64,000 nucleotides of DNA from Promethearchaeota archaeon (lineage in GTDB: Archaea; Asgardarchaeota; Lokiarchaeia; Sigyniarchaeales; SOKP01), in the NCBI GenBank assembly GCA_048939015.1, contig JBHLPW010000002.1, positions 1 to 64,000 of the forward strand, written 5' to 3'. The notes beneath the pieces are model-generated. The model was not told the origin of the DNA. It worked only from the letters and a program-made list of their open reading frames with translations, and did no database searches. Shown piece after piece: positions 32,706 to 64,000 of the stretch (within the stretch, counting starts at the first letter, position 1; each line of letters begins with the position of its first letter). The position numbers were made by a program, and so were the translations under genes.

Positions 32706-35276
32706 TTAGTCACATTCTTCTGGTATAACTAAAGGCTGGGTTCCAGTTTGGTTGCCAATTAGTTTTAATATCTCAGGACCAAAAACATTAGATAATATTT
32801 CATTCATCTGTTTTCCGCCTAAATAGCTTTGACAGCCTAAATGAAGTTTATGAAAGGTATCACCTAGGTTTTCTTCAACTTCCTTAATGAATTCGATTAT
32901 TTTATCTTCTAATGTTGGTGATGGAGTCTCGTTCAGTAAAAAGACTACTTTAAATTCTTTATTGGTAAAAAATCCACCTGAAAGATGGCCAAGGCTAAAC
33001 TTTATTGATAAAATTTCGCCTACTTTCAATGCATGGCTCGCTATATGATCCAATGCTGTGAGAAAACCAGAAAAAATTGTATTATCAACATCTTCAGTAG
33101 TAAAATTTAATTCATATTGATTAGCACCACTTTCTCGATGTTGTACCAGTAATTTCTGAATATTTTCTATATCTGGATCGACTATAAAGGGTTTTGTTAA
33201 GAAATTATAGATATCCTCAGACGAGTTTTTTAGCACTTTGAACAATTTTTTGTTTATATAACCATACTCAGGGCCAGTTGGTTCTTCCCAACTTGGATCA
33301 TTTATCAATTCTGTTGCTGCTCGTCCGCTATTTTTCATTATACCTACTTGCGCTCCAAAAACGATTGCTAAATGAAATTCAAAGGCAGAAATATCTCCAC
33401 CGTTTATTCCAATAAGTTTAACTTTACTTGGTTCAATACCAGATTTCATTATATCATACCAATATTGAATCGGTTCTCTAATACTGAAATCTTTTCCTTC
33501 TGTAAAATGAACTGTACTATATCTTTTATCTAATTCAACGTGAGCAGGCATATGACTTGGAACATAACCAATTGTTTTTATTTGATCTGGGTAGTTATCT
33601 TGGATTTCTCCTACTGTACCGCTAATTCCTGCTTTGGTACCACCTGAAATTATTGTTCCTTCAAAATTCCTAAAAGCTTCAATTATATTAGTGTTAAATA
33701 TTTCTAAATTTCGTTCAATACGTTTATCTGTCCCCCCAGCAATAATTACAATAGGCTCATCAAGATTTCTTTCCATTTGTTTTATTTCGGAATCTAATGC
33801 CAAAGTGGACTCATTAATCATTTTATCAGTTTTCTCAACTATATTTGGATGAAATAAAATCCCCAATCGAAGAACTTGTCTGATAAAATCGATGCCTTTT
33901 AATTTATCTTTTATTAGTTTAAGGTTATTCAGAGTATTTAGAGTAGTTTCAATCATCCAAATATCAGAGCTGAATCTTATTCCTTTTAAATAATAATCTA
34001 AAGCTTCATTTACATTTCTAAGAAATAAGTTAAATAAACCTACGTCAAAAAAAGCCCATGGAGTATCGACCATTACTTCTATTTGTCTTAACCGTATTTT
34101 AATTGCTTTCTGAATCATATCATAATTTCTTTCAATATGAACTAAATCTCCTGTTTGCTGAATAACTAGGATTAAATAATTACCTAAAGGATATGGATCT
34201 CCTGGATTCACTTTTAATGCTTGTTTATAGCATTCCAAAGCTTTAGTATAATTATTTTGACTTTTATATGTACCTCCTAATGATGACCATCCATTTGAAT
34301 CAAAAGGATTTCTTTGAGCTGCCTCTATTAAAAATTTCTGACCCTGAATAAATGCTGGGCTTGAGGGATTTTTTTTGTATTTTTGATGATGAGATACACC
34401 CAAATCTCTTAAAACTTCTGCTACTTCTAATTCTGATACTTGTTTAAAGGCTTCAGTTTTCATCAATTCATTTAAAATTTCAATACTTTTATCCATATCG
34501 TTAATTGCCATCGCCAATCTCGCAATTCTATAACCAATTTTTAAATTCTCTTTGTCAGCTTCATAGACCATTTCTAATCTCTCTATTTCAGACTTTATTT
34601 TTTCATTAGACATATAAGTGATTATGGTTGATTCATAATCCCGCATTTTTTTCATGATTTTATCTAATGATTCATCTTCAATAGTCAATAATGATTTTAC
34701 TCGGGTGAGTTCTTGTTCATATGGTTTAGGGACTTTAAAGTCGTGTTGGTTAAAGACTTTGTATTGATTCGCAGCCCATCCATAACTCAAATATGTACAA
34801 ATTTGAATTTCTGCTTTTAAATTGAACATTTTCTCAGGGATATTAAGTTCAAGTCTATCATATATCTTTAAATCAGGCATCAACTGAACAGTGTAGGTCT
34901 GAAAATGTCCAAGAGAAGTACTTATCTCACTTAGTTCGGAGATTTCCAAACCATCTACAGTATCAAATAAAAAATTATCTCGAATTGCTTCACTAACAGC
35001 ATTTAATTCGTTGATATTTGGTAAAAGTATCCTAAATCCGATTAAATCAGTAATTTCTAGAAAAGGATTGGTAATTTTCTTTTCTGATTTAAAGAGTTTG
35101 TTTGCAAAACTAGAAATCTTCTTTACTCGCCCTTGTATGATGAATTCAGATGAATGACCTCTTACTATATTCTTGAGGATCTTCTTCATAATTTTATGAA
35201 ATTCTTTGTAAAATGGACGAATTTCTTTATATTTATTAATTTGCTCTTCGTATGGTTTGCGTTGTTCTAATTCCAT
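32706..35276 (-). CDS. Multidomain protein: RelA/SpoT-like nucleotidyltransferase + TPR + SLOG/LOG-like Rossmannoid + longin-like C-terminus
   Basis: QGRVKKISSF..K, ITDLIGFRI and AEIQICT...WA (RelA_SpoT); TPR WSSLGGTYKSQNNYTKALECYKQAL; IIAGG, ISGGTKAGI and GINGG...E (SLOG-like); IFSGFLTAL (longin-like). Confidence 0.7.
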   Translation of the reverse strand: MELEQRKPYEEQINKYKEIRPFYKEFHKIMKKILKNIVRGHSSEFIIQGRVKKISSFANKLFKSEKKITNPFLEITDLIGFRILLPNINELNAVSEAIRDNFLFDTVDGLEISELSEISTSLGHFQTYTVQLMPDLKIYDRLELNIPEKMFNLKAEIQICTYLSYGWAANQYKVFNQHDFKVPKPYEQELTRVKSLLTIEDESLDKIMKKMRDYESTIITYMSNEKIKSEIERLEMVYEADKENLKIGYRIARLAMAINDMDKSIEILNELMKTEAFKQVSELEVAEVLRDLGVSHHQKYKKNPSSPAFIQGQKFLIEAAQRNPFDSNGWSSLGGTYKSQNNYTKALECYKQALKVNPGDPYPLGNYLILVIQQTGDLVHIERNYDMIQKAIKIRLRQIEVMVDTPWAFFDVGLFNLFLRNVNEALDYYLKGIRFSSDIWMIETTLNTLNNLKLIKDKLKGIDFIRQVLRLGILFHPNIVEKTDKMINESTLALDSEIKQMERNLDEPIVIIAGGTDKRIERNLEIFNTNIIEAFRNFEGTIISGGTKAGISGTVGEIQDNYPDQIKTIGYVPSHMPAHVELDKRYSTVHFTEGKDFSIREPIQYWYDIMKSGIEPSKVKLIGINGGDISAFEFHLAIVFGAQVGIMKNSGRAATELINDPSWEEPTGPEYGYINKKLFKVLKNSSEDIYNFLTKPFIVDPDIENIQKLLVQHRESGANQYELNFTTEDVDNTIFSGFLTALDHIASHALKVGEILSIKFSLGHLSGGFFTNKEFKVVFLLNETPSPTLEDKIIEFIKEVEENLGDTFHKLHLGCQSYLGGKQMNEILSNVFGPEILKLIGNQTGTQPLVIPEECD

Positions 35277-35839: not shown

Positions 35840-37900
35840 TTAAGCTGTAGGAGAAACCTTTTTTTGTAAACCTCTTAAAATTTCTTCATATAATTTCTCT
35901 ATAAAACCCTCAAAATCATTCTCAGTATACTTCACATTTAACATCTGCCATAATAAAACAGGTATGTCATCCTCATTATCATATACTGGAATAATTTTTA
36001 ACATTCCCTTTTTTCTCATCTGGAATGCAGCTTGCCATTCATCTTTAACAGCATTAGATTTTACTGAATTTTTCGAGCAGAAAAGTACGAATATATCCGT
36101 ATTTTTTAGAGTATCTTCCATGAATTCTACGATGTTTTGTTTACTGTCAGCTTGCCAATACGAAACCTTTTTTATTTCTGGATATACTTCTAATTCTTTC
36201 ACTATATCTGATATTCGAAAATGCTCAGCATCCAAAGTAGAATAACTGAGAAATACTCTCTGGTTTTTAATGTCCTCAAGTGGTGATACTGGTGCTATTT
36301 CTTTTGCTTTTTGATTAAAGGCGATTGATTTTGATGCTGAAAAATATTCCGCGTCAATTTCCCGATTTTTAATCATTTCAAGAATTATTTGTTCGATTTG
36401 ACTTTCATCTTTAACATCACTCTTTTCAACAATATCCATGAGTTCAAGGCGGGCAAATTTAGTTCCATAGTTCAAGATAGTCTTTTTGATCTTTTTCTTG
36501 ATATTAAACTGGAAGTCCTTACAATAATCAATTTTTTCTTCAATTTTCTCTAGTAATTCAGAAAGTTCATATTCTCTTGCTAATTCTTTTATTTCAACTA
36601 GTTTTAAAATTGCGTCATAAAATTTACTATTTTCAATTAGATTTTCAATTTTAGATAATTTCTTTTGTATCTTTTTATCCATTTTAGCTTGTTCTTTATC
36701 TCTCTTAATTTCTTCTTCCAGTGTTTTACACTGTTCTATTTTTTCTTCTGCTTCTTTCAAAATTTCTGATAATTCATATTCTTGTGCTATTTGTTTAACT
36801 TTTTCTAATTCTCGAAATGCATTTCTTAGCTTATTATCTTCAATTAAATCTTCAATTTCAGATAACTGAGTTTGAAGTTCGTCTTTAACTCTCTGTTCTT
36901 CTAATTCTTCTCTTTTTTCTATTTTAAGTGTATTAACTTCCTTTAATTTTACCTGCGCCTTTTTCATTAATTCTATCAATCCAAAATTTCTTGCAGATGC
37001 TATTATATTATTTAGATTTGCAATAGCTTCATCATATCTATTTCCTCTAATTAATTCATCAATTTCTGACATTTTTTGCTGAAGACCAGTTTTAATTTTT
37101 CGTAGTCCCTCTTCTCTTTCCTCTTTGGAAATTTCTTTAAAGATAATAACAAAATCCCTTACTCGAGCATTTATCTCATGATTAGTGATCATATCGTCAA
37201 CAATGGTTTCAAGAGTTTCACGTTTTATTCCTGTTTTTGATATAATTTCGAAAAAAGGCAGTTCCTTTGATTGAAATTGCATGGTTTTGATAAAATCAAT
37301 AGTTTTTCCTTCAACTAATTGTTTATCCTCCCAATCAGTACCAACTACTACTTCCTGTTTAATTTCGATAGGTTCAACTTCTAATACCTTCCGTTTCATA
37401 GGTTTAGCCTTTACTTCTTTTACTTTCGTCGATTTAACACGTCGAAATATTAATTCTCCTTCCTTACTTACAACAGCAACAACATTTGTTCCAATTAAAC
37501 CAATCCCAAAAATCAAACATAAATAGAATCCAGCTGTAAAGGTTATAGGATTTACAATTACTTGATTTAATGAGATTATAGAAGGATAGATCATTAAGCT
37601 AATTAAAATTAAAAGAAAACCAATTCCACCGAATAGGAGTGCCTTTTTTTTTCTTTCTGGGGTCAATAGTATAATTGAGATAATGGCAAGTGCAACACCT
37701 ACCCACCCCCCAAAAATTAAAGCAATATAACCCTCATATTCTGTCGTATAACCTTCCCATACAGGAGTTTCGGGTGGTGGTGGATATGGAGGGTGATGTT
37801 CTAAATAATATGGAAGAAATGCTGAAACCAATACAATTATAATTAAGATTCCATAAATTAATCTTATAAAATTGAATTTCTGTATTCTAATTTCTGTCAT
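35840..37900 (-). CDS. 4-TM membrane protein with winged-helix/PCI-like segments, three helical repeats and a C-terminal TIR domain
   Basis: N-terminal TM helices; repeats LSEIEDLIEDNKL.NA..EL..VK..A.EYEL.E.L..AEEKI..CK; TIR VFLSYS...FVLFCSKNSVKSNAVKDEW...IIPV. Confidence 0.82.
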   Translation of the reverse strand: MTEIRIQKFNFIRLIYGILIIIVLVSAFLPYYLEHHPPYPPPPETPVWEGYTTEYEGYIALIFGGWVGVALAIISIILLTPERKKKALLFGGIGFLLILISLMIYPSIISLNQVIVNPITFTAGFYLCLIFGIGLIGTNVVAVVSKEGELIFRRVKSTKVKEVKAKPMKRKVLEVEPIEIKQEVVVGTDWEDKQLVEGKTIDFIKTMQFQSKELPFFEIISKTGIKRETLETIVDDMITNHEINARVRDFVIIFKEISKEEREEGLRKIKTGLQQKMSEIDELIRGNRYDEAIANLNNIIASARNFGLIELMKKAQVKLKEVNTLKIEKREELEEQRVKDELQTQLSEIEDLIEDNKLRNAFRELEKVKQIAQEYELSEILKEAEEKIEQCKTLEEEIKRDKEQAKMDKKIQKKLSKIENLIENSKFYDAILKLVEIKELAREYELSELLEKIEEKIDYCKDFQFNIKKKIKKTILNYGTKFARLELMDIVEKSDVKDESQIEQIILEMIKNREIDAEYFSASKSIAFNQKAKEIAPVSPLEDIKNQRVFLSYSTLDAEHFRISDIVKELEVYPEIKKVSYWQADSKQNIVEFMEDTLKNTDIFVLFCSKNSVKSNAVKDEWQAAFQMRKKGMLKIIPVYDNEDDIPVLLWQMLNVKYTENDFEGFIEKLYEEILRGLQKKVSPTA

Positions 37901-52410: not shown

Positions 52411-53991
52411 TTACCAAATTAGATTAGCAATTATATCTTTAGTTGTTTCTGCTTGTTTTTTATTCAGTATTTTTCGAATACGCAGATCATTGATAGCATC
52501 ATCTAGGCGTGTGTCTAGGTTTTTCATTTCCATTAAATTATTTTTATCTCCTTGAGTCTCTACAAGTTCGATCATTGAATTTTCTTTATTCATTAAATCT
52601 CTTAATTTCTGTCTAAAACTAGCTTTCACTTTAGTTCTTACTACTTTCCCTCCATCAATTAAAATGGGTAATACGGGAGCTCTTTCAGTCGTTCGATTTG
52701 TATTGGGGTCCGTGAAGAAAAAGATATAGATTGGGATACCTACTATGACATTTTGTGACTTTAATTCAAGAGTATAGTTATTGAAGAAAGCCTGTACATT
52801 TGTCATTTCACTATCTTTAATCGATTCAATGTTATCCAAACAAGCTTGTTTTTCTGTTTTAATTTGTGCTAATACATCCTCAGCAGATGTTAAATCTTTA
52901 CTTAAGTCACTATGTTTTGCCTCAATTTGTTTTTCGACTTCAGATTTCTTACGTTCTAACTCACGTAGTTTTTGCTGTTTAGTTTTCTCTAGATCTGAGA
53001 TTTCACGTTGTACATTTCTCCGTAATTGTGCTATCTCATTTTTATACCTTGCTATAGAGTCTCCTAATTCACGATATTTAACATCGATATCTTTTAATCC
53101 CTCTTCTACTAAAAAGAGATCTCGTTGGTTAATAGCGTTTTTCAAACCATCCACGCTTTGTTTGAGTGTACTTAGATGATTATTAAGTTCTCCGGTTTTG
53201 TCATTGATTTTGTATTTTCCAAGCTTTACGAGTTCTTCTGGAGATTTTTCTATTTCTCGTTCTTTTTCTGCTTGTATTTCTTTATTCAATATTGCAAGTT
53301 GTTTCTCTTCTTCTCCTGTATCTACTTTTGTATCTCTAATTTTATCAGCTTCTTTGCTTCCTTTTTCGATCCATCTCTCGCATAATTTTATTATAATATC
53401 GCTATAAGAATCTAACGTTTTAACATCTGTTTGTGAAACGAATTCATTAATTTCTGGTACTATTTTAATCTGATTTACACTTTTTGAAATAGATCCTCCT
53501 TCCAACATAAAATAGGGAGTAGAGTGAGCCCCTAGATTATATTGATTAAGAAAAAAGTTTTGAAAATATCCTACTTCATTTGTATTAAACAAAGCTTCTT
53601 GAATAACTATACCACGCTTGAAGTTTTTGGCTCTCTTTAGATAGGAATTATTATAAGATTGTAAAGAATTCAAAAAAGACACAGGATCTGCGCCCTTCAC
53701 AACATTTTCAGGTCGAGGGGGCATCTGAGCGAATTGTCCAACACTTAATTTTTCTTGTTTATTTAAAAGATAACTACAGACACAAGCTCTTGTATCGCTT
53801 AAGGGAATTAAGCGAACAGGCCAAAATGCTGTAGTTATTTTTGAGATTTTCCCTAGCTTTTTTAATGATTTGCCATAAATACCTACACATTCAATCAAAC
53901 CCATGGCAAGTTCGTTAAGTAGGCTTGCTTGACTTCGAGCGGGAGTTATTTCACCCATATTAATTAAAAAAGGTGTTACTTTATCAACCAT
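52411..53991 (-). CDS. Hypothetical coiled-coil protein with globular N- and C-terminal regions
   Basis: Long E/K/Q-rich heptad region at about aa 200-400, flanked by beta-rich FWPVRLIP and IPIYIFFF segments. Confidence 0.7.
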   Translation of the reverse strand: MVDKVTPFLINMGEITPARSQASLLNELAMGLIECVGIYGKSLKKLGKISKITTAFWPVRLIPLSDTRACVCSYLLNKQEKLSVGQFAQMPPRPENVVKGADPVSFLNSLQSYNNSYLKRAKNFKRGIVIQEALFNTNEVGYFQNFFLNQYNLGAHSTPYFMLEGGSISKSVNQIKIVPEINEFVSQTDVKTLDSYSDIIIKLCERWIEKGSKEADKIRDTKVDTGEEEKQLAILNKEIQAEKEREIEKSPEELVKLGKYKINDKTGELNNHLSTLKQSVDGLKNAINQRDLFLVEEGLKDIDVKYRELGDSIARYKNEIAQLRRNVQREISDLEKTKQQKLRELERKKSEVEKQIEAKHSDLSKDLTSAEDVLAQIKTEKQACLDNIESIKDSEMTNVQAFFNNYTLELKSQNVIVGIPIYIFFFTDPNTNRTTERAPVLPILIDGGKVVRTKVKASFRQKLRDLMNKENSMIELVETQGDKNNLMEMKNLDTRLDDAINDLRIRKILNKKQAETTKDIIANLIW

Positions 53992-54097: not shown

Positions 54098-57000
54098 TTA
54101 TCTCAATATTTCCTCATAGAGTTTCTGGATAAATTCATCAAAGTTATCTTTTGTAAATTTAACATTCAATAAAGGCATTAATAAGAATGGAATTAAGTCC
54201 TCTTGTTCATATACGGGAACTATTTTCATCAAACCTTTTTTCCTCATTTGAAAAGCTGCCTGCCACTCATCTTCCACGGCTTTAGATTTTATAGAATTTT
54301 CTGAACAAAAGAATACAAATACTTTACTTAGTCTTAAAGTTCTTTCCATATAAGTTACTATACTCTCACCGCTATCTGCTTCCCAAAAGAATACTTTATC
54401 TATTTTTGGAAATGCTTCTAGTCGTTTGGCAATTTCATCAATATTGAAATGCTCCGAATCTAGAGTGGAGTAGCTTAAAAATACATTTAAGCCTCGAGTA
54501 AAGTATGTTCTTATAGCATTTATATATAGTGGATAGTGAGCGAAATCTTCTGTAGTTACATTTCCTTCATAAAGGTCTCTTTTGAATTGTCTTATTCTTT
54601 CGAAATTTTCTACAATAACATTTTTATCGGGAAAGGTTTCTGAAAAAACCTGCTCCCAATTGTTCTTATCAGTAATTATCGAATTTAATTGAATGAAATC
54701 AAGAGACTCCATTTCATCGGTAGTTGAGGGAAGCTTCTTAGGTGTTAATAATTTAGTTTTACTTTCAATTGTAGTCCTTATATATTCAGGGATTCCTTCT
54801 TGCCACCAAAGAGATTTATAGACACCTTTAAGTTTTGCTTTAGCAAAACTACGGATATTCGTTTCAAAAATTTCAACATCATTTTTGGCAGTCTCAATTT
54901 GTTTTTTGAGCGCTGCTCGTCTTTTCATTCTGGGTCTTATAACTAGGAAAGTGGAAATGGCACCTACAACACCAACAGAAATAACAATAATTGCGATTAT
55001 CACTCCGGGATCTATCCCCGCCGGTAATTCCCCTGAAATATACAAAATAGTTTCATCTGTATTATCGACTTCATTATCATCTCGAAAGCCTCCCGATTTT
55101 GAGCTATATGTTTCATTAATTTCATTATTAGGATCCAATATAATTTCCACTAACACGTTTCCACCTTGGTATAGTTCAGCTCCCTGTATGAGATCATTAT
55201 ATACTTCATCCACATCCAAGTCTATGGGGTTATCAGTGTTGTTAAATAAAATTACATTCAAATGTTCGATCCATATTATAATTATAACATTTTTGGCATC
55301 CCATATTCCATTATTTGTGATTGTGATATTTACTACAAAGGGTTTACCTATATCTGCTTCTATCGGATCAAACTTTAAGACTGCTAGATTAGGCATAGGA
55401 TACCAATAACCTAGCAATGGTTTTGTACCTAAGCCTGTTTCAATACCGTCTAAAAAGGTGTCTCCATCCGTATCATTATTATGAGGATCTGTCCCATTAG
55501 TAAATTCATGATAATTTATGAGGAAATCAGTATCAACATCAGTGATATTATCAGCATCGTTCAATGGATTTAAAATATTAAATACTTCCCATCCGTCAGG
55601 CATTCTATCTGAATCTGTATCAGAATTAAGAGGATTTGTAGAGTTTTTCCACTCCCAAAAATCAAATAACTCATCAGAATCAGAGTCAGGGTTTGTTACA
55701 TTTGTACGATATCCGTCTAACCCTAAAAGATATTCCTCAAGATTAATAAATTTATCTCCATCGGTATCTACGTCAAATCGATAAAATAATGGAAACTTAT
55801 CTTGGTTATAAGCCGTTCCAAAAATTGTCTGAGGATTATCTCCAATTGCATTATAATCTAAATCTAAACCACTATAATCATCCCAAAAATTCCCCACTGA
55901 TCCATCATCCCATATGTTTTTCTTCCCATTATCTTGAGCTTGTAAATTATTCCCTATAAAATTGTTATAGTAGATGCTATTATTCTCACAATATTCATTC
56001 TGGATAAATAAACCAAGTTCACTATTCCTTATTGTATTTCTAAGAAATGAGCTATTAGAACAGCTACTTAATATTATCCCATATTGACTATTTCCATCTA
56101 GATTATTATCTGTAAAGTTATTTAGCGAACACAACTGAGCTAATATTCCGTTAACATTATTAGATATTTGATTATTTATAAATCGGGAATAAGTACTGTA
56201 AACAATTTGGAATCCAGCTCCAAAAAATCCACTCTCCATTAATATTTTGGTACTCTCTGTTAACGTATTTCCTTCATATGTATTATTAAAGCCGAAAACA
56301 TCTTCTATACCAATTAAATTTTGTGAAGCAGAACAATTCATAATTTTACAGTTATTACTAAAGCCAAGATTAATGCCATAAGCGGTATTCATTGATGCAT
56401 TAATATTGTAGAGTGAAATATTATCGCAATATAGGATATTAAGAGCTAAAGTACACTTAGTAAGATTCAAATTTGAAATTATTGAATCAGTACACCCAGA
56501 TAAAATTATTTGCCCGGCATTCGCAAAATTAATCGGTTTCAGATTATTTATATGATAATAATAATAAATAGGCTTCCCATTTACTAAATTTGATGTATCA
56601 ATAAAGAGGATAGGTTCAAAAAACGTTGGATGAATATTTATCCCACAATTAGTCATTAAATTTCTTGATAGGTTATTGTTATCACATGATCCTGGTGATG
56701 CTGAAAGGATGTATACTCCTCCGAGAAAGTTATCATATAAATAGTTATTAATTATGTTGTTTTCATAACTATCTTCGATTTCTATTCCCATTCCATTCTG
56801 ACTAATATTATTATTAGATATAGTTATATTGAAGCAATCGACTAAGCTTAAAGCTACTCCAAGTCCGAAACTAATTGCAGGATCGATGAACTTATTATAA
56901 TTTTTAGTAATATTATTATTTTCGATTGAAGAGTTACTGTTTTGAATTGATATAATACCCAAATATGTGTTTTGTGTGAAAGTATTATCCCTTATTGTAT

Positions 57001-57793
57001 CGTTCATGCAATAAAACAAGGATAAAGCAGTCGTAGTATAAGATATTTCTAGGTCAAAAATTTGGGTTCCACTGCAGTTAATAAGGATTAATTGTCCTGG
57101 TTGAGGAAAATTACCTGGTACCAAATTTTTCTCATTAAATTTATAATAAAGAACCTTTCCATTAATTAAATTGGTTTCATCAATTGAGTGGGAGATTAAA
57201 TCCTCAACTAATGGAAGTCCACCATTAAATGGAAAATTTAATCCACAATTTGTGAAATTATTTTCAGTTAGAGTGATATATCTGCAATCTTGGATTGTTA
57301 TACCAGCGTGACTGTTATTATCAAAAATATTTCTAAAAATCGTATTATTATTAGACGATTGAAGTCCAACTCCTTTCCCTGCTTCATGATAATAATGGTT
57401 AATATTATTATTAAATGAATTATTGAATATAAAATTAAAGTTACTTCCCAATAATGTTATTCCAGCACCACCATTTCTGCAAACGAAATTTTGTGTAATA
57501 TTATTATACTCACACACATCTAAGACTATTCCTGTATTTTCATTGTATGACAAATTATTACGATGTATTAAAGTGAAGAAACTACTTAATGAATAAATTC
57601 CTGCATCATTGTACATCATGTTATTATTTTTAATTGTTGCATTGTTTACTTCGATTAGTTCGATTCCAAAATCATTAAAGTTTGCTGTACTCTTTTCAAT
57701 AGTGATATTTGTACAATATGATAAGGAAAGCCCATTTTTGGTACAATTATTGGTAATTATATTCGAAATAATATAATTTCTACCACCAAGCAC
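54098..57793 (-). CDS. C-terminal part of a single-pass receptor: beta-helix (NosD-like) repeats, DxDxD Ca-binding repeats, CARDB-like Ig, TM, Swt1-like HEPN, TIR
   Basis: N..N..GI repeats; DTDGD/DSDSD units; PNLAV...NNG...LDPNNEINE; TM VIIAIIVISVGVVGAISTFLVI; WWQEGIP...LDFIQL..II...NWEQVF; TIR VFLSYS...AVEDEW. Confidence 0.8.
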   Translation of the reverse strand: MLGGRNYIISNIITNNCTKNGLSLSYCTNITIEKSTANFNDFGIELIEVNNATIKNNNMMYNDAGIYSLSSFFTLIHRNNLSYNENTGIVLDVCEYNNITQNFVCRNGGAGITLLGSNFNFIFNNSFNNNINHYYHEAGKGVGLQSSNNNTIFRNIFDNNSHAGITIQDCRYITLTENNFTNCGLNFPFNGGLPLVEDLISHSIDETNLINGKVLYYKFNEKNLVPGNFPQPGQLILINCSGTQIFDLEISYTTTALSLFYCMNDTIRDNTFTQNTYLGIISIQNSNSSIENNNITKNYNKFIDPAISFGLGVALSLVDCFNITISNNNISQNGMGIEIEDSYENNIINNYLYDNFLGGVYILSASPGSCDNNNLSRNLMTNCGINIHPTFFEPILFIDTSNLVNGKPIYYYYHINNLKPINFANAGQIILSGCTDSIISNLNLTKCTLALNILYCDNISLYNINASMNTAYGINLGFSNNCKIMNCSASQNLIGIEDVFGFNNTYEGNTLTESTKILMESGFFGAGFQIVYSTYSRFINNQISNNVNGILAQLCSLNNFTDNNLDGNSQYGIILSSCSNSSFLRNTIRNSELGLFIQNEYCENNSIYYNNFIGNNLQAQDNGKKNIWDDGSVGNFWDDYSGLDLDYNAIGDNPQTIFGTAYNQDKFPLFYRFDVDTDGDKFINLEEYLLGLDGYRTNVTNPDSDSDELFDFWEWKNSTNPLNSDTDSDRMPDGWEVFNILNPLNDADNITDVDTDFLINYHEFTNGTDPHNNDTDGDTFLDGIETGLGTKPLLGYWYPMPNLAVLKFDPIEADIGKPFVVNITITNNGIWDAKNVIIIIWIEHLNVILFNNTDNPIDLDVDEVYNDLIQGAELYQGGNVLVEIILDPNNEINETYSSKSGGFRDDNEVDNTDETILYISGELPAGIDPGVIIAIIVISVGVVGAISTFLVIRPRMKRRAALKKQIETAKNDVEIFETNIRSFAKAKLKGVYKSLWWQEGIPEYIRTTIESKTKLLTPKKLPSTTDEMESLDFIQLNSIITDKNNWEQVFSETFPDKNVIVENFERIRQFKRDLYEGNVTTEDFAHYPLYINAIRTYFTRGLNVFLSYSTLDSEHFNIDEIAKRLEAFPKIDKVFFWEADSGESIVTYMERTLRLSKVFVFFCSENSIKSKAVEDEWQAAFQMRKKGLMKIVPVYEQEDLIPFLLMPLLNVKFTKDNFDEFIQKLYEEILR

Positions 57794-57850
57794 GGAGAGA
57801 CCAGTTGAAGTATGGGACAGATTAAAGTTGGTAATTACTGAATTATTACA

Positions 57851-58825
57851 CTAAATTAAAATAATCTGACCTGGAGATCCATAACTTACAAAATCAGGTG
57901 TAGCTAAACTCGTTTTATTAAAGTAAAAATAAACCGCTCTGTTGTTAACTTGATTACTTTCATCAATTTTGTTTGAGGACATTTCTGTGATTGAGCCATC
58001 AAGACCAATACCACATCTTTTCATTTCATTACCATTGATTGTATTATTAATTGTATATCTAATCAGTACTCCATATTGATCATTACGATAAGCTAGATTA
58101 TTGGAGATCGTATTATTTTGACCTCCTTCTACAGAAATCCCACTTCCTCCATTATCATGAACATTATTTAGTAAAATTTTATTAAAATCACAATTAGATA
58201 CAATCCTTATTCCATCATTATTGTTATCACTAGCTTCATTTCCTATAATTGTATTATTTATACATAAACTTTCGAGAAATACTCCCGTAAAAATATTATC
58301 ATTTACAGTATTTGCCGATAAAGTGTTATTTTCACTGTTGCTTAAATAGATCCCATAAGCATCATTCATCGAACAATCATTATTGATTATTGTACCATTA
58401 CATGTAGAAACTAATTTTATTCCTGCTTCTTTAGAATATCTGTCTCCATCTCCAGAATTAAATAATGTACAGTTTTCAATGATAAAAGGCACAATCGAAT
58501 TATTAATCAGAATACAACTCTCTGTTTCCTGTCCATCAATTACAACATTTTTAATAACAAATGGATCACTCCAAGTTCCTGATCCATTACACCATTCATT
58601 AGTTGCAGCGGTAATCGACCAATTTAAAGAGGGATTACTCTCATCAATGTGTATTTTATTTGAAAGAACCCAGTATCGAGCGAGTTTTAATTTGGAATCA
58701 TACTTTTCGGTTATAATTTTATTTGTACTAAATGATTTCATCCAGAGATCGCTACATAAAAAGGATGAGATTAAAAGGGTACTTAATAATAAGGATGAAA
58801 TTAAATCTCTACATTTTATTTTCAC
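57851..58825 (-). CDS. N-terminal part of the same receptor (signal peptide + beta-helix), ending at an in-frame TAG
   Basis: Signal peptide, WCNGSGTWSDPFVI cap and beta-helix repeats; same reading frame as 54098-57793 with only one stop between them. Confidence 0.8.
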   Translation of the reverse strand: MKIKCRDLISSLLLSTLLISSFLCSDLWMKSFSTNKIITEKYDSKLKLARYWVLSNKIHIDESNPSLNWSITAATNEWCNGSGTWSDPFVIKNVVIDGQETESCILINNSIVPFIIENCTLFNSGDGDRYSKEAGIKLVSTCNGTIINNDCSMNDAYGIYLSNSENNTLSANTVNDNIFTGVFLESLCINNTIIGNEASDNNNDGIRIVSNCDFNKILLNNVHDNGGSGISVEGGQNNTISNNLAYRNDQYGVLIRYTINNTINGNEMKRCGIGLDGSITEMSSNKIDESNQVNNRAVYFYFNKTSLATPDFVSYGSPGQIILI

Positions 58826-59022: not shown

Positions 59023-62000
59023 TCAACGTAAAATCTCTTCATAGAGCCTTTGGATAAATCCATCTAAATCATCTTCAGTATATCTTACATTTAAAAATGG
59101 CATTAAAAGAATGGGAACATCTTCTTCATTTTCATATACAGGAATAATTTTAACAGCTCCCTTCTTATTTAATTGATAAGCTGCTTGCCATTCTCCTTCA
59201 ACAGATTTCGAATCTTTTGAGTGTTTAGTACAAAATAAGACGAAAGTGTTGGAAATACTTAAAGTCTTTTCCATAAATTCAACAATATTTTGACCACTAT
59301 CTTTAATATAATAATAGACTTTGTCAATTTCCGGATATTTCTCAAGGCCTTCTACGATTTTATTGATGTGGAAATGATCCAAATCCAATGAGGAATAACT
59401 TATAAAAATGTTGAATTTCCTTGGTTTTACAACAGTGGGAACAACTTTTGGTCCTTCTTCAACTTTTGATGCAGTTTTAGAGGCTTGTTCCATTTCTTTT
59501 TCTATTGTAGGAGTTGGTTTCTTTTCTTCCTTTAACTTCTCTTTCACTGCAGGTTTAGCAACAGGTTCTCTTTTAATTTCTCTGAGAATTCCTGACTCAA
59601 TATCCTTACATTGTTCAATTTTTTCATTCGCATTGTTAAAAATATCAAAAAACTCATACGTTTCTGCTGTATCTTGAATTTTTCCTAAATTTTTATATGC
59701 TAATTTAATATTTCTTTCTTTTATGAGATAATCAACAAAATCTAATTTTCCTTCTAGTTTTGTTCTCATCTTTTCTTTCTTTTTTTCACTTATCTCTTTT
59801 TTCTTCAATCCTGATACTGTCATTCTCTTCTTTATCAATATCGCAGCACCAGTCACTCCCACAGCAACTATCGCAATAACCAATACAATTATAAAAATTT
59901 CAGTGGGAAAACCAGAAGGACTAGGGATATTATTTCCTGTATTACCCACACTATTATGAATAATGATATCAGTTCCATTATCCGATAAATTATTCCCATT
60001 AATATTATTATAATTAGATTGATCGAGATATATGCCTACACCATTATTCGAAATTACATTATCAGTGATTTTATTATTATGACTGTTTATCAGATAAATA
60101 CCATTCTCAACATTCAAATTTATTGTATCTGAATTATTGAATATATTTATATGGTTACTATTTATCAATTTAATACCATTTAAATCATTAGAATTAATAG
60201 TGCTACTTGTAATATTTACATATTGGCAGGAATCTAAGAGAATTCCATTTCCATTGTTAAAAGAACAATTAAGATATATTAATACTCCATATGATAGATT
60301 AATTAATTTAACTCCTGCGTCGTTTTGATCATTACCAGAACTATAAAAGGAGCAATTATTTATTGTAAAGGAAATATTAGAATTACTAATTGTTATGCAA
60401 CTACCTGTACTTTGACCATCAATTTCTAATGATTCAATAATGAATGGATCAGTCTTGGTTCCAGAGCCAGAACACCATCCCTGTTTAACTGCTTCCATCC
60501 ATGTATAATCTCCACTACCACTATCGTCAATTATAAGCGGATTTAATGGCCAATAGTTATAATACTTTTCAATCGAAACTGATTGATATCCTATATTTCC
60601 AGCTGTGTCATTAGCATAAAAAATGATAGTTATTGTCTCACGTCCTTTTTTATTCCATTCTTCTTCATCTATGATCCCTGTACTAGTAGTCGTTTTATTT
60701 GTTATACCATCATCAATCGTATACCATATATAATCGGGGTTTAATTCTGTAATTGTTATGTTGAATGAAGGTGAAATTGTATCAAATCTATCTCCTGGAT
60801 GTGGCGAATTAATACTAATCATTGGAACATGAGTATCTTTTAATATATTCACTTCTGCAAATCCCATATTAGCAAATGTGTCATTTGCATAAAAAGTAAT
60901 ATTTACTGAACCATCTGGAAAAATATCCCATATAGTTTGATTTATAGTGCCACTCCAGATCGTAATATTCATATTAGCTGAAGAATATGATTTGTTGCTT
61001 ACAACGTACCAAGCATTGTGAAAATTACTATCAATAATTGATATATTATAATTAGGGGCTTTATAGCTAAAAGCTTGGTTATAAATTGGATTATGGATTG
61101 TAATTAGAGGTCCTAAGGTATCTTTTCTAACATTAATTTCGTGCGCTGTTTCCACTCCCCGCGAGTCATTTACATAAAAACGGATCAAAACAGTTCCATT
61201 TGCCATACTATCCCAAGCTGAAAAGTTAATAGTACCATTAGTTGTAAAGGTGTAGATAGACGTATCGTTGCCTAAAGTATACCACATTGTGTGACTGATG
61301 CCTTCCTCAATAATAATAGTATAATTTGGAGGAGTCTGTTGAAATATTTCATTCTCAGTAGGAGAAATTACGGAAAAAACAATAGGATCCCACCAAATTG
61401 GAAGTTTATCTTGACTTGGGGCTGTGCCTCCAATATTTAAATAAGGTACGTCTCCAATTCCATCATCATCCACATCCTTGCCCGAATAATCAGACCAATA
61501 ATTCCCTATTGTACTCGTATTCCATTTATTCTTGTAGCCATCATCATATGCGTTTAAAGCATTAGTATAAAAATAATTTTGAGATATTAAATTATATGAA
61601 GCATCACTTTGTAGATATAGTCCACGCTGTGTATTATTTATTAATACATTATTAGTCAAGTTGTTAGAGTTCCCATATTCGAGTTCGATTCCCCTAAAAT
61701 TTTCAATAAGTACATTACTTTTAATAGTATTGTTATTAATCAAAGTTCCCTGAAAAAATATACCCTGATTCGTATTATTCTTTATAATATTCTCAAAAAT
61801 ACAATTAAAACGAATGTCATTTCCCGAACAGTAAATTCCCTGATAGTTATTACTTATTTTATTATTTGAAATGTTATTATTATAGCAATTATACAACAGT
61901 ATGATTCCATAATTATTACTATTACTAATTGTATTATTTGAAATATTATTATTATTACAGCTCTCCAAAAAACCATTCAATTCAATGCAACTTCCTTTAT

Positions 62001-63999
62001 GAAATTGGACATAATTTAGCGAGACTACAGAATTATTGGATCTATGTATAGAAATTCCATCATAATTGTATTTAATTGTATTATTATAAATAAAACTTAA
62101 ATCACAATCTCCTAAATATAAACCAGTATTGGTATTATTATATATCATCTGTTCATAGATGTAGCTATACTGACAGTAATAAAATTCGACTCCACTAGGA
62201 TTATTACTCACTGTATTATTAGAAAAGGTAGTATTGATGCAAAACCTAATAGTAATTGAACCAAAAGGATTAAATACAATAGTGTTCTTCTGAATCGAAG
62301 TATGATTAGAATTCTCAATAAAAACTCCATAATATTGGTTGTTTGTAATCATATTTTCAATTAGACTAATATTAAGACCACTATCAATCGAAATACCTAG
62401 ATAATTATTGTCACTTATGGTACTATTTTCTAAAACACCATAAGTGACGTTATTAAAAATAATTCCAGAACCAGAATCGCTGGCATTCAAAAATTTACAA
62501 TCTTGAATGAGAAATTGAACTATAGAATTACTTATTTTAATACAATTTGAAATATTATTACCATTTATGATTAAATTCTTCAAGAGATAAGGATCTGTTA
62601 ATGTACCAGAACCAGAACACCATAATAAATCTGAACTTGCTTTAGACCATGTAAAATTCCCACTTCCTGTTTCATCAATAATAATAGGTGAAATAGTATA
62701 ATTGCAAACATTCCATGTAAAATTATTATTTAATCCATTATTATCTTCAAAACACTTTATACTATTTTCATTTATGATATTTCCATAGATTTCAGTATTA
62801 TTACTCGATTCCAGATAAATCCCATATTCGAAATTATTATTTATAAAAGTAGTTTTTATAGTATTATTTTCACAATTTTCTAACAATATTCCAATTCCAT
62901 TGTTAAACGAACAATTACTATTAATAATCGCTACGTTGCTAACATTCACCAATTTAATTCCAGCGGATCCAGCAATAGAACTGCTATTATAAATTTTGCA
63001 ATTATTAAAAATGATATATTTATTTGAATTTTTAATTTCAATACAACTGTTTAAATCTTGGCCATTAAAAATTAAACCATTAAAAATATATGGATCATTA
63101 GAAGTACCAGAGCCTTCTATAAGAGTTCTCCACCATGGTTGATTTCTTGCCCAAGTCCAATTATGCGCTCCAACACCAGATGCCACTCCATCGATTTCAA
63201 TAGGTTCACGATAAATTGAATGGATATCATTAAACCAAATTTTACCCATAAAATTCGGCTTATATCTGAAGTCATTACGAATGGCATAGTACATATGAGG
63301 TGTGTATATATATACGTATGGATAAAGATCCTCCACAATATATTTTTGCATATTATTGTATAACGACTTTCTTATAGAAAAATCAGTTTCATTTAGAGCT
63401 TGTTCCATTAAACCCTCGAGAACTGTATCGTTAACTTGACCGCGATTATATATTGAAGAATTTGAATAAAGATATTCTAGTAATACACTTGGATCATTGT
63501 AAGTTATACCTTCATAATAATAACCAAACAATTCAAGCGTTCCTACGTTATAGTACAATCTCATATAAAAATCAAACCATGAGAGAGGGTCATCGATAAC
63601 TTCAATACCAATTAAATTCAACGAATAGCTCCACGAGTTATAAATATTGGCAAATATTGGAGAACTATCTAAATAAGAATAATCTAAACTTGCAAAAATC
63701 GTAGAAGTCCAAAGACCTTCATCAGTTCCAGGATAATCGGTATCCCATCCAACACCAAAACCCATACTTTGCATAGTTTCTCTAGCTTTTGTAATATTGC
63801 AAGTAGCTATCTGATTAGAATAATTCGAATATAGCATTCCATAAGGTATTGGAGATCTTAATCTATTCGCATGCCCTTCGGCAATTTCATTAATTATATA
63901 AGAATAATTTGTTGCGTAAGAAATAGCTTTTCTCCATGTTTTATCTAGAAGTGTGTTGTTCATTCCTAAATAAATGAAATCTGAAGAGTTCTCTGGACC
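59023..63999 (-). CDS. Single-pass receptor, 5' end outside window: family-5 ABC solute(peptide)-binding domain, beta-helix blocks, Ig-like stalk, TM, helical module, TIR
   Basis: Frame is open to the window edge (GPENSSDFIYLGMNN); WRKAISYA..., SPIP, RKSLYNNMQKYIVEDLYP (SBP_bac_5); three GSGTxxDPY/F-capped beta-helices; TM IFIIVLVIAIVAVGVTGAAILI; TIR IFISYS...SVEGEW. Confidence 0.83.
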   Translation of the reverse strand, partial: GPENSSDFIYLGMNNTLLDKTWRKAISYATNYSYIINEIAEGHANRLRSPIPYGMLYSNYSNQIATCNITKARETMQSMGFGVGWDTDYPGTDEGLWTSTIFASLDYSYLDSSPIFANIYNSWSYSLNLIGIEVIDDPLSWFDFYMRLYYNVGTLELFGYYYEGITYNDPSVLLEYLYSNSSIYNRGQVNDTVLEGLMEQALNETDFSIRKSLYNNMQKYIVEDLYPYVYIYTPHMYYAIRNDFRYKPNFMGKIWFNDIHSIYREPIEIDGVASGVGAHNWTWARNQPWWRTLIEGSGTSNDPYIFNGLIFNGQDLNSCIEIKNSNKYIIFNNCKIYNSSSIAGSAGIKLVNVSNVAIINSNCSFNNGIGILLENCENNTIKTTFINNNFEYGIYLESSNNTEIYGNIINENSIKCFEDNNGLNNNFTWNVCNYTISPIIIDETGSGNFTWSKASSDLLWCSGSGTLTDPYLLKNLIINGNNISNCIKISNSIVQFLIQDCKFLNASDSGSGIIFNNVTYGVLENSTISDNNYLGISIDSGLNISLIENMITNNQYYGVFIENSNHTSIQKNTIVFNPFGSITIRFCINTTFSNNTVSNNPSGVEFYYCQYSYIYEQMIYNNTNTGLYLGDCDLSFIYNNTIKYNYDGISIHRSNNSVVSLNYVQFHKGSCIELNGFLESCNNNNISNNTISNSNNYGIILLYNCYNNNISNNKISNNYQGIYCSGNDIRFNCIFENIIKNNTNQGIFFQGTLINNNTIKSNVLIENFRGIELEYGNSNNLTNNVLINNTQRGLYLQSDASYNLISQNYFYTNALNAYDDGYKNKWNTSTIGNYWSDYSGKDVDDDGIGDVPYLNIGGTAPSQDKLPIWWDPIVFSVISPTENEIFQQTPPNYTIIIEEGISHTMWYTLGNDTSIYTFTTNGTINFSAWDSMANGTVLIRFYVNDSRGVETAHEINVRKDTLGPLITIHNPIYNQAFSYKAPNYNISIIDSNFHNAWYVVSNKSYSSANMNITIWSGTINQTIWDIFPDGSVNITFYANDTFANMGFAEVNILKDTHVPMISINSPHPGDRFDTISPSFNITITELNPDYIWYTIDDGITNKTTTSTGIIDEEEWNKKGRETITIIFYANDTAGNIGYQSVSIEKYYNYWPLNPLIIDDSGSGDYTWMEAVKQGWCSGSGTKTDPFIIESLEIDGQSTGSCITISNSNISFTINNCSFYSSGNDQNDAGVKLINLSYGVLIYLNCSFNNGNGILLDSCQYVNITSSTINSNDLNGIKLINSNHINIFNNSDTINLNVENGIYLINSHNNKITDNVISNNGVGIYLDQSNYNNINGNNLSDNGTDIIIHNSVGNTGNNIPSPSGFPTEIFIIVLVIAIVAVGVTGAAILIKKRMTVSGLKKKEISEKKKEKMRTKLEGKLDFVDYLIKERNIKLAYKNLGKIQDTAETYEFFDIFNNANEKIEQCKDIESGILREIKREPVAKPAVKEKLKEEKKPTPTIEKEMEQASKTASKVEEGPKVVPTVVKPRKFNIFISYSSLDLDHFHINKIVEGLEKYPEIDKVYYYIKDSGQNIVEFMEKTLSISNTFVLFCTKHSKDSKSVEGEWQAAYQLNKKGAVKIIPVYENEEDVPILLMPFLNVRYTEDDLDGFIQRLYEEILR

Positions 64000-64000
64000 A

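What the first reader, a model, noticed from the sequence alone, without database searches (positions are those of the whole stretch)
59023..64000. ABC-type peptide-binding domain wired through a beta-helix/Ig stalk and one TM to a TIR
Seen: the portion at about 63250-64000 has family-5 solute-binding motifs (YLGMNN, WRKAISYA, SPIP, ARETM, RKSLYNNMQKYIVED.YP) in the same frame as three capped beta-helix blocks, three Ig-like units, a TM, the helical module and the TIR. The N-terminus is outside the window. Established: family-5 proteins bind oligopeptides (including muropeptides in MppA) or nickel via a Venus-flytrap closure. Inference: a transporter component repurposed as the ligand sensor of a TIR receptor, giving a concrete ligand hypothesis (peptides or cell-wall fragments from neighbouring cells).
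Basis: partly seen in the sequence, partly recalled or inferred. Interest (0 to 1): 0.85.

Follow-up and report, generated by a model that had tools for sequence, protein, structure and literature searches.

The report
Asgard surface receptor with TIR tail
An Asgard archaeon encodes a 2,187-residue surface protein with a complete transporter-type solute-binding domain outside the cell and a Toll-like TIR domain inside; it belongs to a family of receptor-shaped proteins that I found in no paper, but its ligand is unknown and this copy has lost the residue that normally anchors peptides.

Summary
The open frame continues past the window edge to contig position 65586 and gives one 2,187-aa protein. 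Its order is: signal/anchor, beta-helix, a complete family-5 (DppA/GsiB-like) solute-binding domain, two beta-helix blocks, three Ig-like repeats, a fourth beta-helix, one TM helix, a helical module, a disordered linker and a C-terminal TIR.

The fusion is not an assembly artefact. At least eight other Asgard proteins join SBP_bac_5 to this same TIR tail. More than 14 others join an unrelated solute-binding fold (Peripla_BP_6-like) to it.

The genome holds seven paralogous tails on different ectodomains. The family is patchy, expanded and almost confined to one taxonomic family. A RelA/SpoT-TPR-SLOG gene lies beside a membrane-TIR gene in five genomes of the genus, which suggests a Thoeris-like signal reader.

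The "peptide or muropeptide sensor" reading is only partly supported. This copy, alone among 40 related domains, lacks the Trp and Asp that match DppA W405 and D408. It also sits on a long branch, and its closest relative has no solute-binding domain at all.

Ligand, signal transmission and TIR catalysis are all untested. This scan had already noted the same architecture in at least six other genomes.

The parts
59026..59415 (-). TIR domain, residues 2058-2187, ending exactly at the C-terminus (stop codon 59023-59025). The conserved Glu E2132 is codon 59191-59193.
   Evidence: Pfam TIR_2 E 3.8e-12. In the AF2 tail model this region has pLDDT above 90. Foldseek matches the TIRs of Hydra TRR-2, MyD88, MAL, SPARTA, AbTir and SARM1. 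E2132 is invariant in 36 tails and aligns with the canonical TIR Glu of Cat1 and of a TIR-TPR protein.
59416..59571 (-). Disordered K/E/P-rich cytoplasmic linker, residues 2006-2057.
   Evidence: pLDDT is below 50 in the tail model. Its length varies among homologues.
59572..59826 (-). Cytoplasmic helical module of three helices, residues about 1934-2005. It is homologous to the helical part that precedes a PCI-like winged helix in paralogous tails. The winged helix is absent here.
   Evidence: Three helices at pLDDT about 90. Conserved in 26 tails. PCI hits in tails of the other class: P0067 at 34 bits, P0019 and P0026 at about 21 bits.
59827..59901 (-). Single transmembrane helix (residues 1899-1917), followed by KKR.
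   Evidence: Hydropathy 2.99 over 19 residues. The same position is hydrophobic in homologues. There are 71 N-x-S/T sequons before it and none after it.
59917..60558 (-). Membrane-proximal capped beta-helix block 4, residues 1677-1890.
   Evidence: NosD/Beta_helix hits. N-cap motif at residue 1704. About 75-80% identical to P0037.
60559..61401 (-). Three tandem ~95-aa Ig-like repeats, residues 1396-1676.
   Evidence: Pairwise local alignments score 106-141 with a shared pattern. No Pfam hit. Colinear with P0037.
61402..63186 (-). Beta-helix blocks 2 and 3, residues 801-1395. The C-cap motif NYWSDY...DDDGIGD is at residue 1362.
   Evidence: NosD E 1.4e-62 and Beta_helix E 6.5e-51 for the whole protein. 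Cap motifs.
63187..64000 (-). C-terminal half of the family-5 solute-binding domain (residues 530-800). The domain (residues 255-800) continues to contig position 64824 outside the window. Beyond it lie beta-helix block 1 (64825-65439) and the signal/anchor (65506-65586). The diverged pocket motif is at 63502-63519 (Y690, Y691, E692, T695) and F645 is at 63652-63654.
   Evidence: Coordinates.
54098..58825 (-). Neighbouring paralogue with beta-helix ectodomain, TM and TIR. It is one frame broken by a single in-frame TAG at 57851-57853.
35840..37900 (-). Third TIR-tail paralogue of the cluster (686 aa).
32706..35276 (-). RelA/SpoT-TPR-SLOG protein, a candidate reader and effector of a TIR-made signal.
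   Evidence: Pfam RelA_SpoT 36.5 bits and LSDAT_prok SLOG 29 bits. It lies next to a membrane-TIR gene in five genomes of the genus.

Best explanation
The gene encodes a type-I, single-pass and probably N-glycosylated surface protein of an Asgard archaeon. It belongs to a lineage-restricted, expanded family in which a conserved TM-linker-TIR tail is combined with interchangeable ectodomains. Here the ectodomain is a beta-helix/Ig stalk that carries one complete cluster-C (DppA/GsiB-like) solute-binding domain as a side module between two beta-helix blocks. I think it most likely works as an outside-in receptor in three steps. First, something engages the ectodomain. Second, this changes how the tails are clustered or oriented. 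Third, the TIR domains assemble and cleave NAD+ into a nucleotide signal, which the RelA/SpoT-TPR-SLOG protein at the end of the same gene cluster would read. Shown here: the architecture, the two folds, the topology indicators, the family and its shuffling, and the TIR-SLOG synteny. Inferred: ligand binding, signalling by clustering rather than by Venus-flytrap closure passed along the stalk, TIR catalysis, and SLOG as reader. In this copy the binding domain has lost the Trp/Asp pair that anchors a peptide N-terminus. Its ligand is therefore probably not an ordinary free peptide; specificity has changed, or binding is lost.
For: One uninterrupted 6.5-kb frame lies inside a 152-kb contig of about 30% GC, with no long internal repeats. 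The solute-binding fold is complete. The TIR fold is present with an invariant Glu at the canonical position. Topology indicators agree: an N-terminal hydrophobic segment, one TM followed by KKR, 71 sequons outside against 0 inside, and 27 Cys outside against 2 inside. Seven paralogous tails in this genome are 50-60% identical and sit on different ectodomains. SBP_bac_5 plus this TIR is also found in P0013, P0019, P0026, P0031, P0079, P0085, P0125 and P0129. A Peripla_BP_6-like domain plus this TIR is found in 14 or more proteins. In most of these the binding domain sits at the membrane-distal end, directly after the signal peptide. In a quick tree the TIR-linked family-5 domains need at least 6 gains or losses, which indicates repeated shuffling. 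The RelA/SpoT-TPR-SLOG gene lies within 0.8 kb of a membrane-TIR gene in G000, G024, G001 and G005, and within 2.6 kb in G023. Thoeris systems work by a TIR-made ADPR-type signal that binds a SLOG effector (10.64898/2025.12.03.692087). No ABC permease is on contigs C21 or C6.
Against: There is no experiment of any kind. The conserved Glu is also kept by animal scaffold TIRs, so it permits catalysis but does not show it. The Trp four residues before the Glu, typical of NADase TIRs, is absent from the whole family. The SLOG gene is adjacent to another TIR gene of the cluster and lies 24 kb from this one. The five syntenic genomes are of one genus and so are not independent. This copy's binding pocket motif is degenerate and the domain is on a branch four times the median length. 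The closest relative, P0037, has no solute-binding domain and no helical module, yet has an 81% identical TIR; the binding module is thus dispensable for whatever the chassis does. More than 1,100 residues of stalk separate the binding domain from the membrane.
Confidence: 0.5

Rival explanations
1. Antiviral or anti-competitor sentinel. The exposed, fast-changing ectodomains are contact sensors or decoys for viruses or foreign cells, and the TIR triggers NAD+ depletion or a Thoeris-like signal that leads to dormancy or death. This shares the output side of the best explanation but names a defence trigger instead of a solute.
For: Distribution is patchy, with 0-11 copies per genome within one genus, tandem arrays, and near-restriction to one taxonomic family. 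The distal ectodomain diverges and is shuffled while the TIR stays 50-80% identical. Several TIR genes plus a SLOG gene resembles type III Thoeris as described in 10.64898/2025.12.03.692087. There is a weak ThsB-type hit.
Against: PADLOC gives only a 21-bit ThsB TIR hit and no system-level match. Known Thoeris TIR proteins are cytosolic. No mobile-element or defence-island markers were looked for. Two kinds of solute-binding domain are hard to explain as virus sensors.
Confidence: 0.2
2. Structural surface protein or adhesin. The beta-helix/Ig/solute-binding ectodomain mediates attachment or nutrient capture at the cell surface or on protrusions. The TIR tail is a non-enzymatic assembly or anchoring module that ties the protein to cytoplasmic partners, for example through PCI-like domains.
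For: Beta-helix and Ig repeats with dense sequons are typical of archaeal envelope proteins and adhesins. Neighbouring genes encode 2,276- and 2,370-aa Big_13/CBM surface proteins without TIR. Many Asgard proteins carry 2-4 tandem family-5 domains and no TIR. Many tails carry a PCI-like winged helix, and soluble LRR-PCI-TIR proteins exist. Top fold matches include scaffold TIRs such as MyD88, MAL and TLR2.
Against: The canonical Glu is invariant across the family. The SLOG neighbour is conserved. The recurrent placement of solute-binding folds at the membrane-distal tip of a TM-TIR chassis looks like receptor logic.
Confidence: 0.2
3. Tethered substrate-binding protein that feeds an ABC importer, with the TIR incidental.
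For: Archaeal binding proteins are normally membrane-tethered. The genome has canonical family-5 binding-protein genes next to permease genes on C61 and C59.
Against: No permease gene is on C21. The neighbours are surface proteins, PAP2, SDRs, NAD kinase and AFOR. The domain sits beyond a stalk of about 1,100 residues. The peptide-anchoring Asp is lost.
Confidence: 0.05
4. Assembly chimera or decaying gene.
For: This exact protein is seen on one contig only. The genome bin has 6.5% contamination. The neighbouring paralogue carries an in-frame TAG. Reads could not be inspected.
Against: The frame stays open for 6,561 nt in AT-rich DNA. GC is even across it. The longest internal repeats are 33-49 nt at about 80% identity and lie away from the domain junctions. 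The same domain order occurs in independent assemblies. Both flanks are colinear with P0037. The AF2 confidence for the binding domain is high.
Confidence: 0.03

Closest known systems
Cluster C / Pfam SBP_bac_5 substrate-binding proteins of Opp/Dpp/Nik/Gsi ABC importers (E. coli DppA 1DPP/1DPE, YliB/GsiB 1UQW, Haemophilus GbpA 3M8U)
   Same: Full-length profile match and the same fold. The family profile hits 3M8U at E 2e-70 and DppA at E 2e-63. Foldseek gives TM up to 0.90, best to open, unliganded forms.
   Different: The domain is embedded in a 2,187-aa single-pass protein between beta-helix blocks, with no permease or ATPase genes nearby. The equivalents of DppA W405 and D408 are replaced by Y691 and T695, and the conserved Arg by F645. 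The Asgard group as a whole has Tyr where DppA has R355.
Thoeris anti-phage systems (ThsB TIR signal generator plus SLOG-containing effector), especially type III with several TIR genes and a SLOG effector
   Same: TIR domains with the canonical Glu. Several TIR genes lie in one cluster with a conserved adjacent SLOG-domain protein. There is a weak ThsB profile hit. Background from 10.64898/2025.12.03.692087.
   Different: The TIRs here are cytoplasmic tails of giant glycosylated surface proteins, not soluble sensors. The SLOG protein carries RelA/SpoT and TPR domains, not SIR2. The host is an archaeon. No defence function has been shown.
Animal Toll-like / IL-1 receptors and Hydra Toll-related receptor TRR-2
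   Same: The topology is ectodomain, one TM helix, cytoplasmic TIR. The best structural match of the TIR model is Hydra TRR-2 TIR (4W8G; E 3e-5, TM 0.78), followed by MyD88, MAL and TLR2.
   Different: The ectodomain is a beta-helix solenoid, Ig-like repeats and a solute-binding domain, not LRR. TIR sequence identity is only about 17-19%. Nothing here supports common descent of the whole receptor. A helical or PCI-like module lies between TM and TIR.
Receptors that use periplasmic-binding-protein folds as sensors (BvgS-type sensor kinases; ANF/natriuretic-peptide receptors, iGluR and class C GPCR)
   Same: A Venus-flytrap solute-binding fold is placed extracellularly on a membrane-spanning signalling protein. 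The sister architecture in this family uses a Peripla_BP_6/ANF_receptor-like fold.
   Different: The output is a TIR, not a kinase, cyclase or channel. The fold used here is cluster C (family 5). A very long rigid stalk separates the sensor from the membrane.

Membership tests
SBP_bac_5 (cluster C substrate-binding proteins) | Pfam PF00496 match above the gathering score over the whole model | tested here: met
   163.1 bits against a cut-off of 32.4; residues 312-712 on profile positions 2-366 of 368.
SBP_bac_5 (cluster C substrate-binding proteins) | Bilobed Venus-flytrap fold with the extra domain of cluster C | tested here: met
   AF2 pLDDT 89.9 and pTM 0.88. Foldseek E 1e-34 to 1e-39 to GbpA, DppA, YliB, NikA and MppA, with TM 0.78-0.90 to open forms.
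SBP_bac_5 (cluster C substrate-binding proteins) | Peptide-binding subgroup: conserved Asp that binds the ligand alpha-amino group (DppA D408) and the preceding Trp (W405) | tested here: not met
   The profile-to-DppA alignment places D408 and W405 on the GW..D column. Of 40 Asgard domains, 39 have the Trp, 36 have Asp and one has Glu at the D408 column. This copy has Y691 and T695 with a one-residue insertion. Whether E692 substitutes for the Asp could not be checked without model coordinates.
SBP_bac_5 (cluster C substrate-binding proteins) | Genomic association with ABC permease and ATPase genes | tested here: not met
   There are 18 BPD_transp_1 hits in the genome and none on C21. The neighbours within 10 kb are unrelated.
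SBP_bac_5 (cluster C substrate-binding proteins) | Binds a solute with domain closure | not testable with these tools
   Needs thermal shift, ITC or crystallography.
TIR domain (TIR_2, enzymatic type) | Pfam match and flavodoxin-like TIR fold | tested here: met
   PF13676 at 47-53 bits against a cut-off of 28. The model's TIR part has pLDDT above 90. There are 53 PDB TIR matches at E below 1e-3.
TIR domain (TIR_2, enzymatic type) | Catalytic Glu at the start of helix alpha-C | tested here: met
   E2132 is invariant in 36 of 36 and 29 of 29 tails. It aligns with the Glu of the W...E motif in Cat1 (9MUD) and a TIR-TPR protein (9M0N). This is necessary for catalysis but not sufficient.
TIR domain (TIR_2, enzymatic type) | Trp four residues before the Glu (WxxxE) | tested here: not met
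   The family has S/A/K at position -4 and Trp at +1, giving the motif VEGEW.
TIR domain (TIR_2, enzymatic type) | NAD+ cleavage or cyclisation activity | not testable with these tools
   A biochemical assay is needed.
Thoeris-like TIR-SLOG signalling | TIR gene adjacent to an effector with a SLOG (or other signal-binding) domain | tested here: inconclusive
   Met for the 686-aa TIR gene of this cluster and its counterparts in 4 other genomes of the genus. The gene under study lies 24 kb away in the same co-oriented cluster.
Thoeris-like TIR-SLOG signalling | Match to curated ThsB or defence-system models | tested here: inconclusive
   PADLOC ThsB1 at 21 bits, E 4.7e-5, on the domain only, with no system call.
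Animal TLR / IL-1R family | LRR (TLR) or Ig (IL-1R) ectodomain, one TM, and a TIR that recruits adaptor TIRs | tested here: not met
   The topology is met. The ectodomain is beta-helix plus solute-binding domain, with no LRR. The TIR is only 17-19% identical. Adaptor recruitment was not tested. This is a resemblance in design, not membership.
NosD / right-handed beta-helix repeat proteins | Pfam NosD and Beta_helix matches | tested here: met
   NosD at 211 bits and Beta_helix at 172 bits, six stretches each.

The most novel reading that the evidence does not exclude
Asgard archaea possess an outside-in TIR signalling pathway. Modular single-pass surface receptors have tips that include two kinds of recruited transporter binding proteins. 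When engaged by a solute, polymer, neighbouring cell or virus, they activate cytoplasmic TIR domains, whose nucleotide product is read by a conserved SLOG-RelA/SpoT protein. This would be a prokaryotic counterpart of Toll/IL-1-type receptor logic joined to Thoeris-type chemistry, in the lineage closest to eukaryotes.
Probability: 0.3. Interest if true: 0.85.

Novelty: new variant of a known kind. Interest (0 to 1): 0.62.

Why it matters
TIR signalling in prokaryotes is known only from cytosolic defence sensors, while TIR receptors that span the membrane are known only from animals. A family of archaeal surface proteins that joins ligand-binding ectodomains to enzyme-type TIR tails, beside a candidate signal reader, would show that this receptor design can arise in prokaryotes. 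It would also give a testable handle on how Asgard archaea sense partners, viruses or nutrients. That question bears on syntrophy and on the origin of eukaryotic immune and signalling modules. For this gene the practical message is narrower. The architecture is real, but this copy is a poor choice for a peptide-ligand screen. The paralogue on contig C6 (P0019), which keeps the Trp/Asp motif, is a better one.

Tried and rejected
- Complex prediction on two copies of the cytoplasmic helical module gave no verdict (score 0.00). This is not evidence either way.
- Single-sequence PDB searches were weak. The binding domain alone matched only its first 360 residues, and the TIR alone gave E above 0.1. 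Family profiles were needed.
- Pfam gave nothing for the Ig-like region 1380-1720, for the 526-aa neighbour at 52411-53991, or for the 325-330-aa genes paired with the orphan binding proteins on C32.
- PADLOC gave no system-level match.
- The careful phylogeny did not finish in the time allowed. Only the quick tree (SH-aLRT support, midpoint root) was used. Some 'non-TIR' rows come from short contigs and may simply be truncated.
- Literature: searches for Asgard plus TIR domain, TIR plus solute-binding plus transmembrane, Asgard plus Toll-like plus beta-helix, and Loki/Promethearchaeota plus TIR domain found no description of these proteins. Leao et al. 2024 (PMC11291487) list only defence-finder categories such as 'Rst 2TM 1TM TIR'. 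The library misses most subscription journals, so absence is not proven.
- Considered and rejected: muropeptide sensing as in MppA. MppA is only one of many equal fold matches (ranks 43-45), and the amino-group anchor is missing.
- Considered and rejected: closure of the binding domain transmitted mechanically along the stalk.
Full report
THE GENE. The window is positions 1-64000 of contig C21 (152,742 b) of a 4.86-Mb genome bin, 94.9% complete with 6.5% contamination. It gives one 2,187-aa protein, P0002, with its stop codon at 59023-59025. GC is an even 26-33% across the gene. The longest internal DNA repeats are 33-49 nt at about 80% identity and lie away from the domain junctions.

ANATOMY. 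Pfam finds NosD and Beta_helix (six stretches each), SBP_bac_5 (residues 312-712, profile 2-366 of 368, E 1.4e-47) and TIR_2 (2060-2179, E 3.8e-12). Hydropathy finds two hydrophobic segments: 8-26, preceded by KKKSK, and 1899-1917, followed by KKR. The 1,872 residues between them hold 71 N-x-S/T sequons, 14% Asn and 27 Cys. The 270 residues after the TM hold no sequon and 2 Cys. This fits an outside ectodomain and a cytoplasmic tail.

The order of parts is:
- signal/anchor;
- beta-helix block 1, with N-cap WCSGSG at residue 75 and C-cap NYWSDY...DDDGIGD at 214;
- solute-binding domain, 255-800;
- beta-helix blocks 2 and 3 (caps at 824, 989 and 1362);
- three ~95-aa repeats, 1396-1676;
- beta-helix block 4 (cap at 1704);
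- TM helix;
- a three-helix module;
- a disordered K/E/P linker;
- TIR, running to the last residue.

THE SOLUTE-BINDING DOMAIN. A profile of 40 related domains matches solved cluster-C binding proteins over their full length: GbpA/HbpA 3M8U at E 2e-70, YliB/GsiB 1UQW at 5e-64, and DppA 1DPP at 2e-63. The AF2 model has pLDDT 89.9. It superposes best on open, unliganded forms, with TM 0.90 to 5U4O, 0.88 to 1UQW and 0.85 to 1DPE.

The pocket tells a different story. The profile-to-DppA alignment puts DppA W405 and D408 on the family's GW..D motif (I counted the numbering from the printed alignment). D408 and R355 are the two residues swapped in PDB entry 8Z1Z, there numbered D436 and R383 with the signal peptide (row 30). 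That D408 anchors the peptide's alpha-amino group is from my own knowledge of the DppA structure papers. Of the 40 Asgard domains, 39 keep the Trp, 36 keep the Asp and one has Glu. This copy reads YYEGIT, with Y691 and T695 and one inserted residue, and it is the only domain that has lost both. A conserved Arg (82% of domains) is F645 here. Overall the copy departs from 20 of 116 columns that are at least 80% conserved, against 1-12 for its nearest relatives. It also sits on a terminal branch of 1.18, against a median of 0.31. The fold is kept, but the canonical peptide anchor is gone.

THE TIR. The tail model is confident for the TIR (pLDDT above 90) and for three helices at 1934-2005. The 55 residues between them are disordered. 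Foldseek matches TIRs of every functional kind: Hydra TRR-2, MyD88, MAL, TLR2, SPARTA TIR-APAZ, AbTir, SARM1, ThsB and Cat1. The fold alone therefore does not separate an enzyme from a scaffold. E2132 is invariant in all aligned tails and aligns with the Glu of the W...E motif in Cat1 and in a TIR-TPR protein. The Trp at position -4 is missing from the whole family. The Glu is permissive evidence only, since animal scaffold TIRs keep it too (my knowledge).

THE FAMILY. The genome holds seven tails that are 50-60% identical in the TIR:
- this gene;
- its neighbour at 54098-58825;
- a 686-aa protein at 35840-37900;
- two on C6, one with SBP_bac_5 (P0019) and one with a Peripla_BP_6-like domain;
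- one each on C94 and C90.

In public data, SBP_bac_5 occurs with this TIR in P0013 (two binding domains, 3,673 aa), P0026, P0031 (named Hermodarchaeota), P0079, P0085, P0125 and P0129. A Peripla_BP_6-like domain occurs with it in at least 14 proteins. Other tails sit on beta-helix-only ectodomains, on multi-TM units, or on soluble caspase-like, LRR or PCI modules. Of 173 family members examined, 91 have one or two hydrophobic segments, 10 have more and 72 have none; many of the last are fragments. The library of 50%-identity representatives holds 120 clusters at E of 1e-30 or better. All names given by sources are Asgard: Promethearchaeota, Hermodarchaeota and Hodarchaeales. The genome encodes a eukaryote-type actin at 426 bits.

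DISTRIBUTION. Within the genus, copy number runs from 0 to 11, with tandem arrays. In a 201-genome sample of the phylum the close clade was found in 15 genomes, 14 of them in the window's own family.

SHUFFLING. The closest relative, P0037, is colinear with residues 1-250 and 968-2187, about 75-80% identical near the membrane and 81% in the TIR. It lacks the binding domain, beta-helix block 2 and the helical module. In the quick tree the TIR-linked family-5 domains are scattered among domains from proteins without a detected TIR, and well-supported branches force at least 6 changes of that label. Many Asgard surface proteins carry 2-4 tandem family-5 domains and no TIR. The binding domain is thus a mobile ectodomain module, recruited to the TIR chassis more than once.

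CONTEXT. Upstream, on the other strand, lie PAP2, three SDRs, a methyltransferase, NAD kinase, 3-hydroxyacyl-CoA dehydrogenase and AFOR. Downstream, co-oriented, lie the TAG-interrupted TIR paralogue, a 526-aa protein of no family, two surface proteins of more than 2,200 aa, the 686-aa TIR protein and a RelA/SpoT-TPR-SLOG protein. No ABC permease is on C21, C6 or C32, whereas C61 and C59 have ordinary binding-protein and permease pairs. Orthologues of the SLOG protein (65-83% identical) lie directly beside a membrane-TIR gene in G024, G001 and G005, and 2.6 kb from one in G023. In Thoeris systems a TIR-made ADPR derivative binds a SLOG domain of the effector, and type III has several TIR genes with one SLOG effector (10.64898/2025.12.03.692087). 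This synteny is the best indirect evidence that the family's TIRs make a signal. However, the genomes are kin and the SLOG gene is 24 kb from the gene studied.

MECHANISM. I consider an outside-in receptor the best reading (0.5). Because both ends of a DppA-type fold lie in the same lobe (my knowledge, not measured here), the domain hangs off the stalk, and its closure should not be passed on mechanically. Engagement that clusters or reorients several receptors, as TIR enzymes need for activity, is more plausible. The rivals are a defence sentinel (0.2), a structural or adhesive protein with a scaffold TIR (0.2), a tethered importer component (0.05) and an artefact (0.03).

LITERATURE AND EARLIER NOTES. 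None of the searches found these proteins described. Earlier notes of this scan report the same design in at least six other genomes and elsewhere in this one. I re-derived the points I use from my own calls.

Noticed in passing
window 57851-57853 (gene 54098-58825, minus strand): The neighbouring TIR paralogue is one continuous beta-helix frame broken by a single in-frame TAG (...QIILI*CNNSV...). This could be a pseudogene, a sequencing error or read-through/recoding. Stop-codon recoding has been reported for some Asgard lineages (PMC9723677, title only seen).
   Followed up: partly
window 32706-35276 (minus strand): An 856-aa RelA/SpoT-TPR-SLOG (LSDAT_prok) protein lies 0.56 kb downstream of the 686-aa TIR gene. 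Orthologues sit next to membrane-TIR genes in four other genomes of the genus. It is a candidate reader and effector of a TIR signal.
   Followed up: partly
window 54098-57793, protein residues about 973-1083: The cytoplasmic linker of the neighbouring paralogue (and of P0049, P0054 and P0055) differs from the helical or PCI-type linkers. It matches PADLOC candidate family PDC-M34B at 31.5 bits. The tails therefore come in at least three linker classes.
   Followed up: no
window 38138-52234 (minus strand): Two giant surface proteins (2,370 and 2,276 aa, with Big_13 and a sialidase-like CBM) and a 526-aa protein of no family lie between the TIR genes, all co-oriented.
   Followed up: no
G000 contig C32 58997-67909 (loci L022, L024, L025): Three orphan family-5 binding-protein genes (569-607 aa) are each followed by an opposite-strand gene of 325-330 aa with no Pfam family, and no permease is nearby. 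This is a thrice-repeated gene pair of unknown meaning.
   Followed up: partly
L009 12819-13922 (contig C21 70818-71921, plus strand): An NAD kinase gene lies about 5 kb upstream of this TIR gene. This is probably coincidence but is noted because TIRs consume NAD+.
   Followed up: no
proteins P0036, P0074, P0075, P0076 (public metagenomes): Short soluble proteins carry two to four tandem copies of this same TIR clade. They could serve as adaptors or amplifiers.
   Followed up: no
G000 contig C6 20800-32710: An SBP_bac_5-TIR gene and a Peripla_BP_6-like-TIR gene flank a 717-aa opposite-strand gene. The tails of the first class contain a PCI-like winged helix (about 21 bits, just under the Pfam cut-off).
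   Followed up: partly
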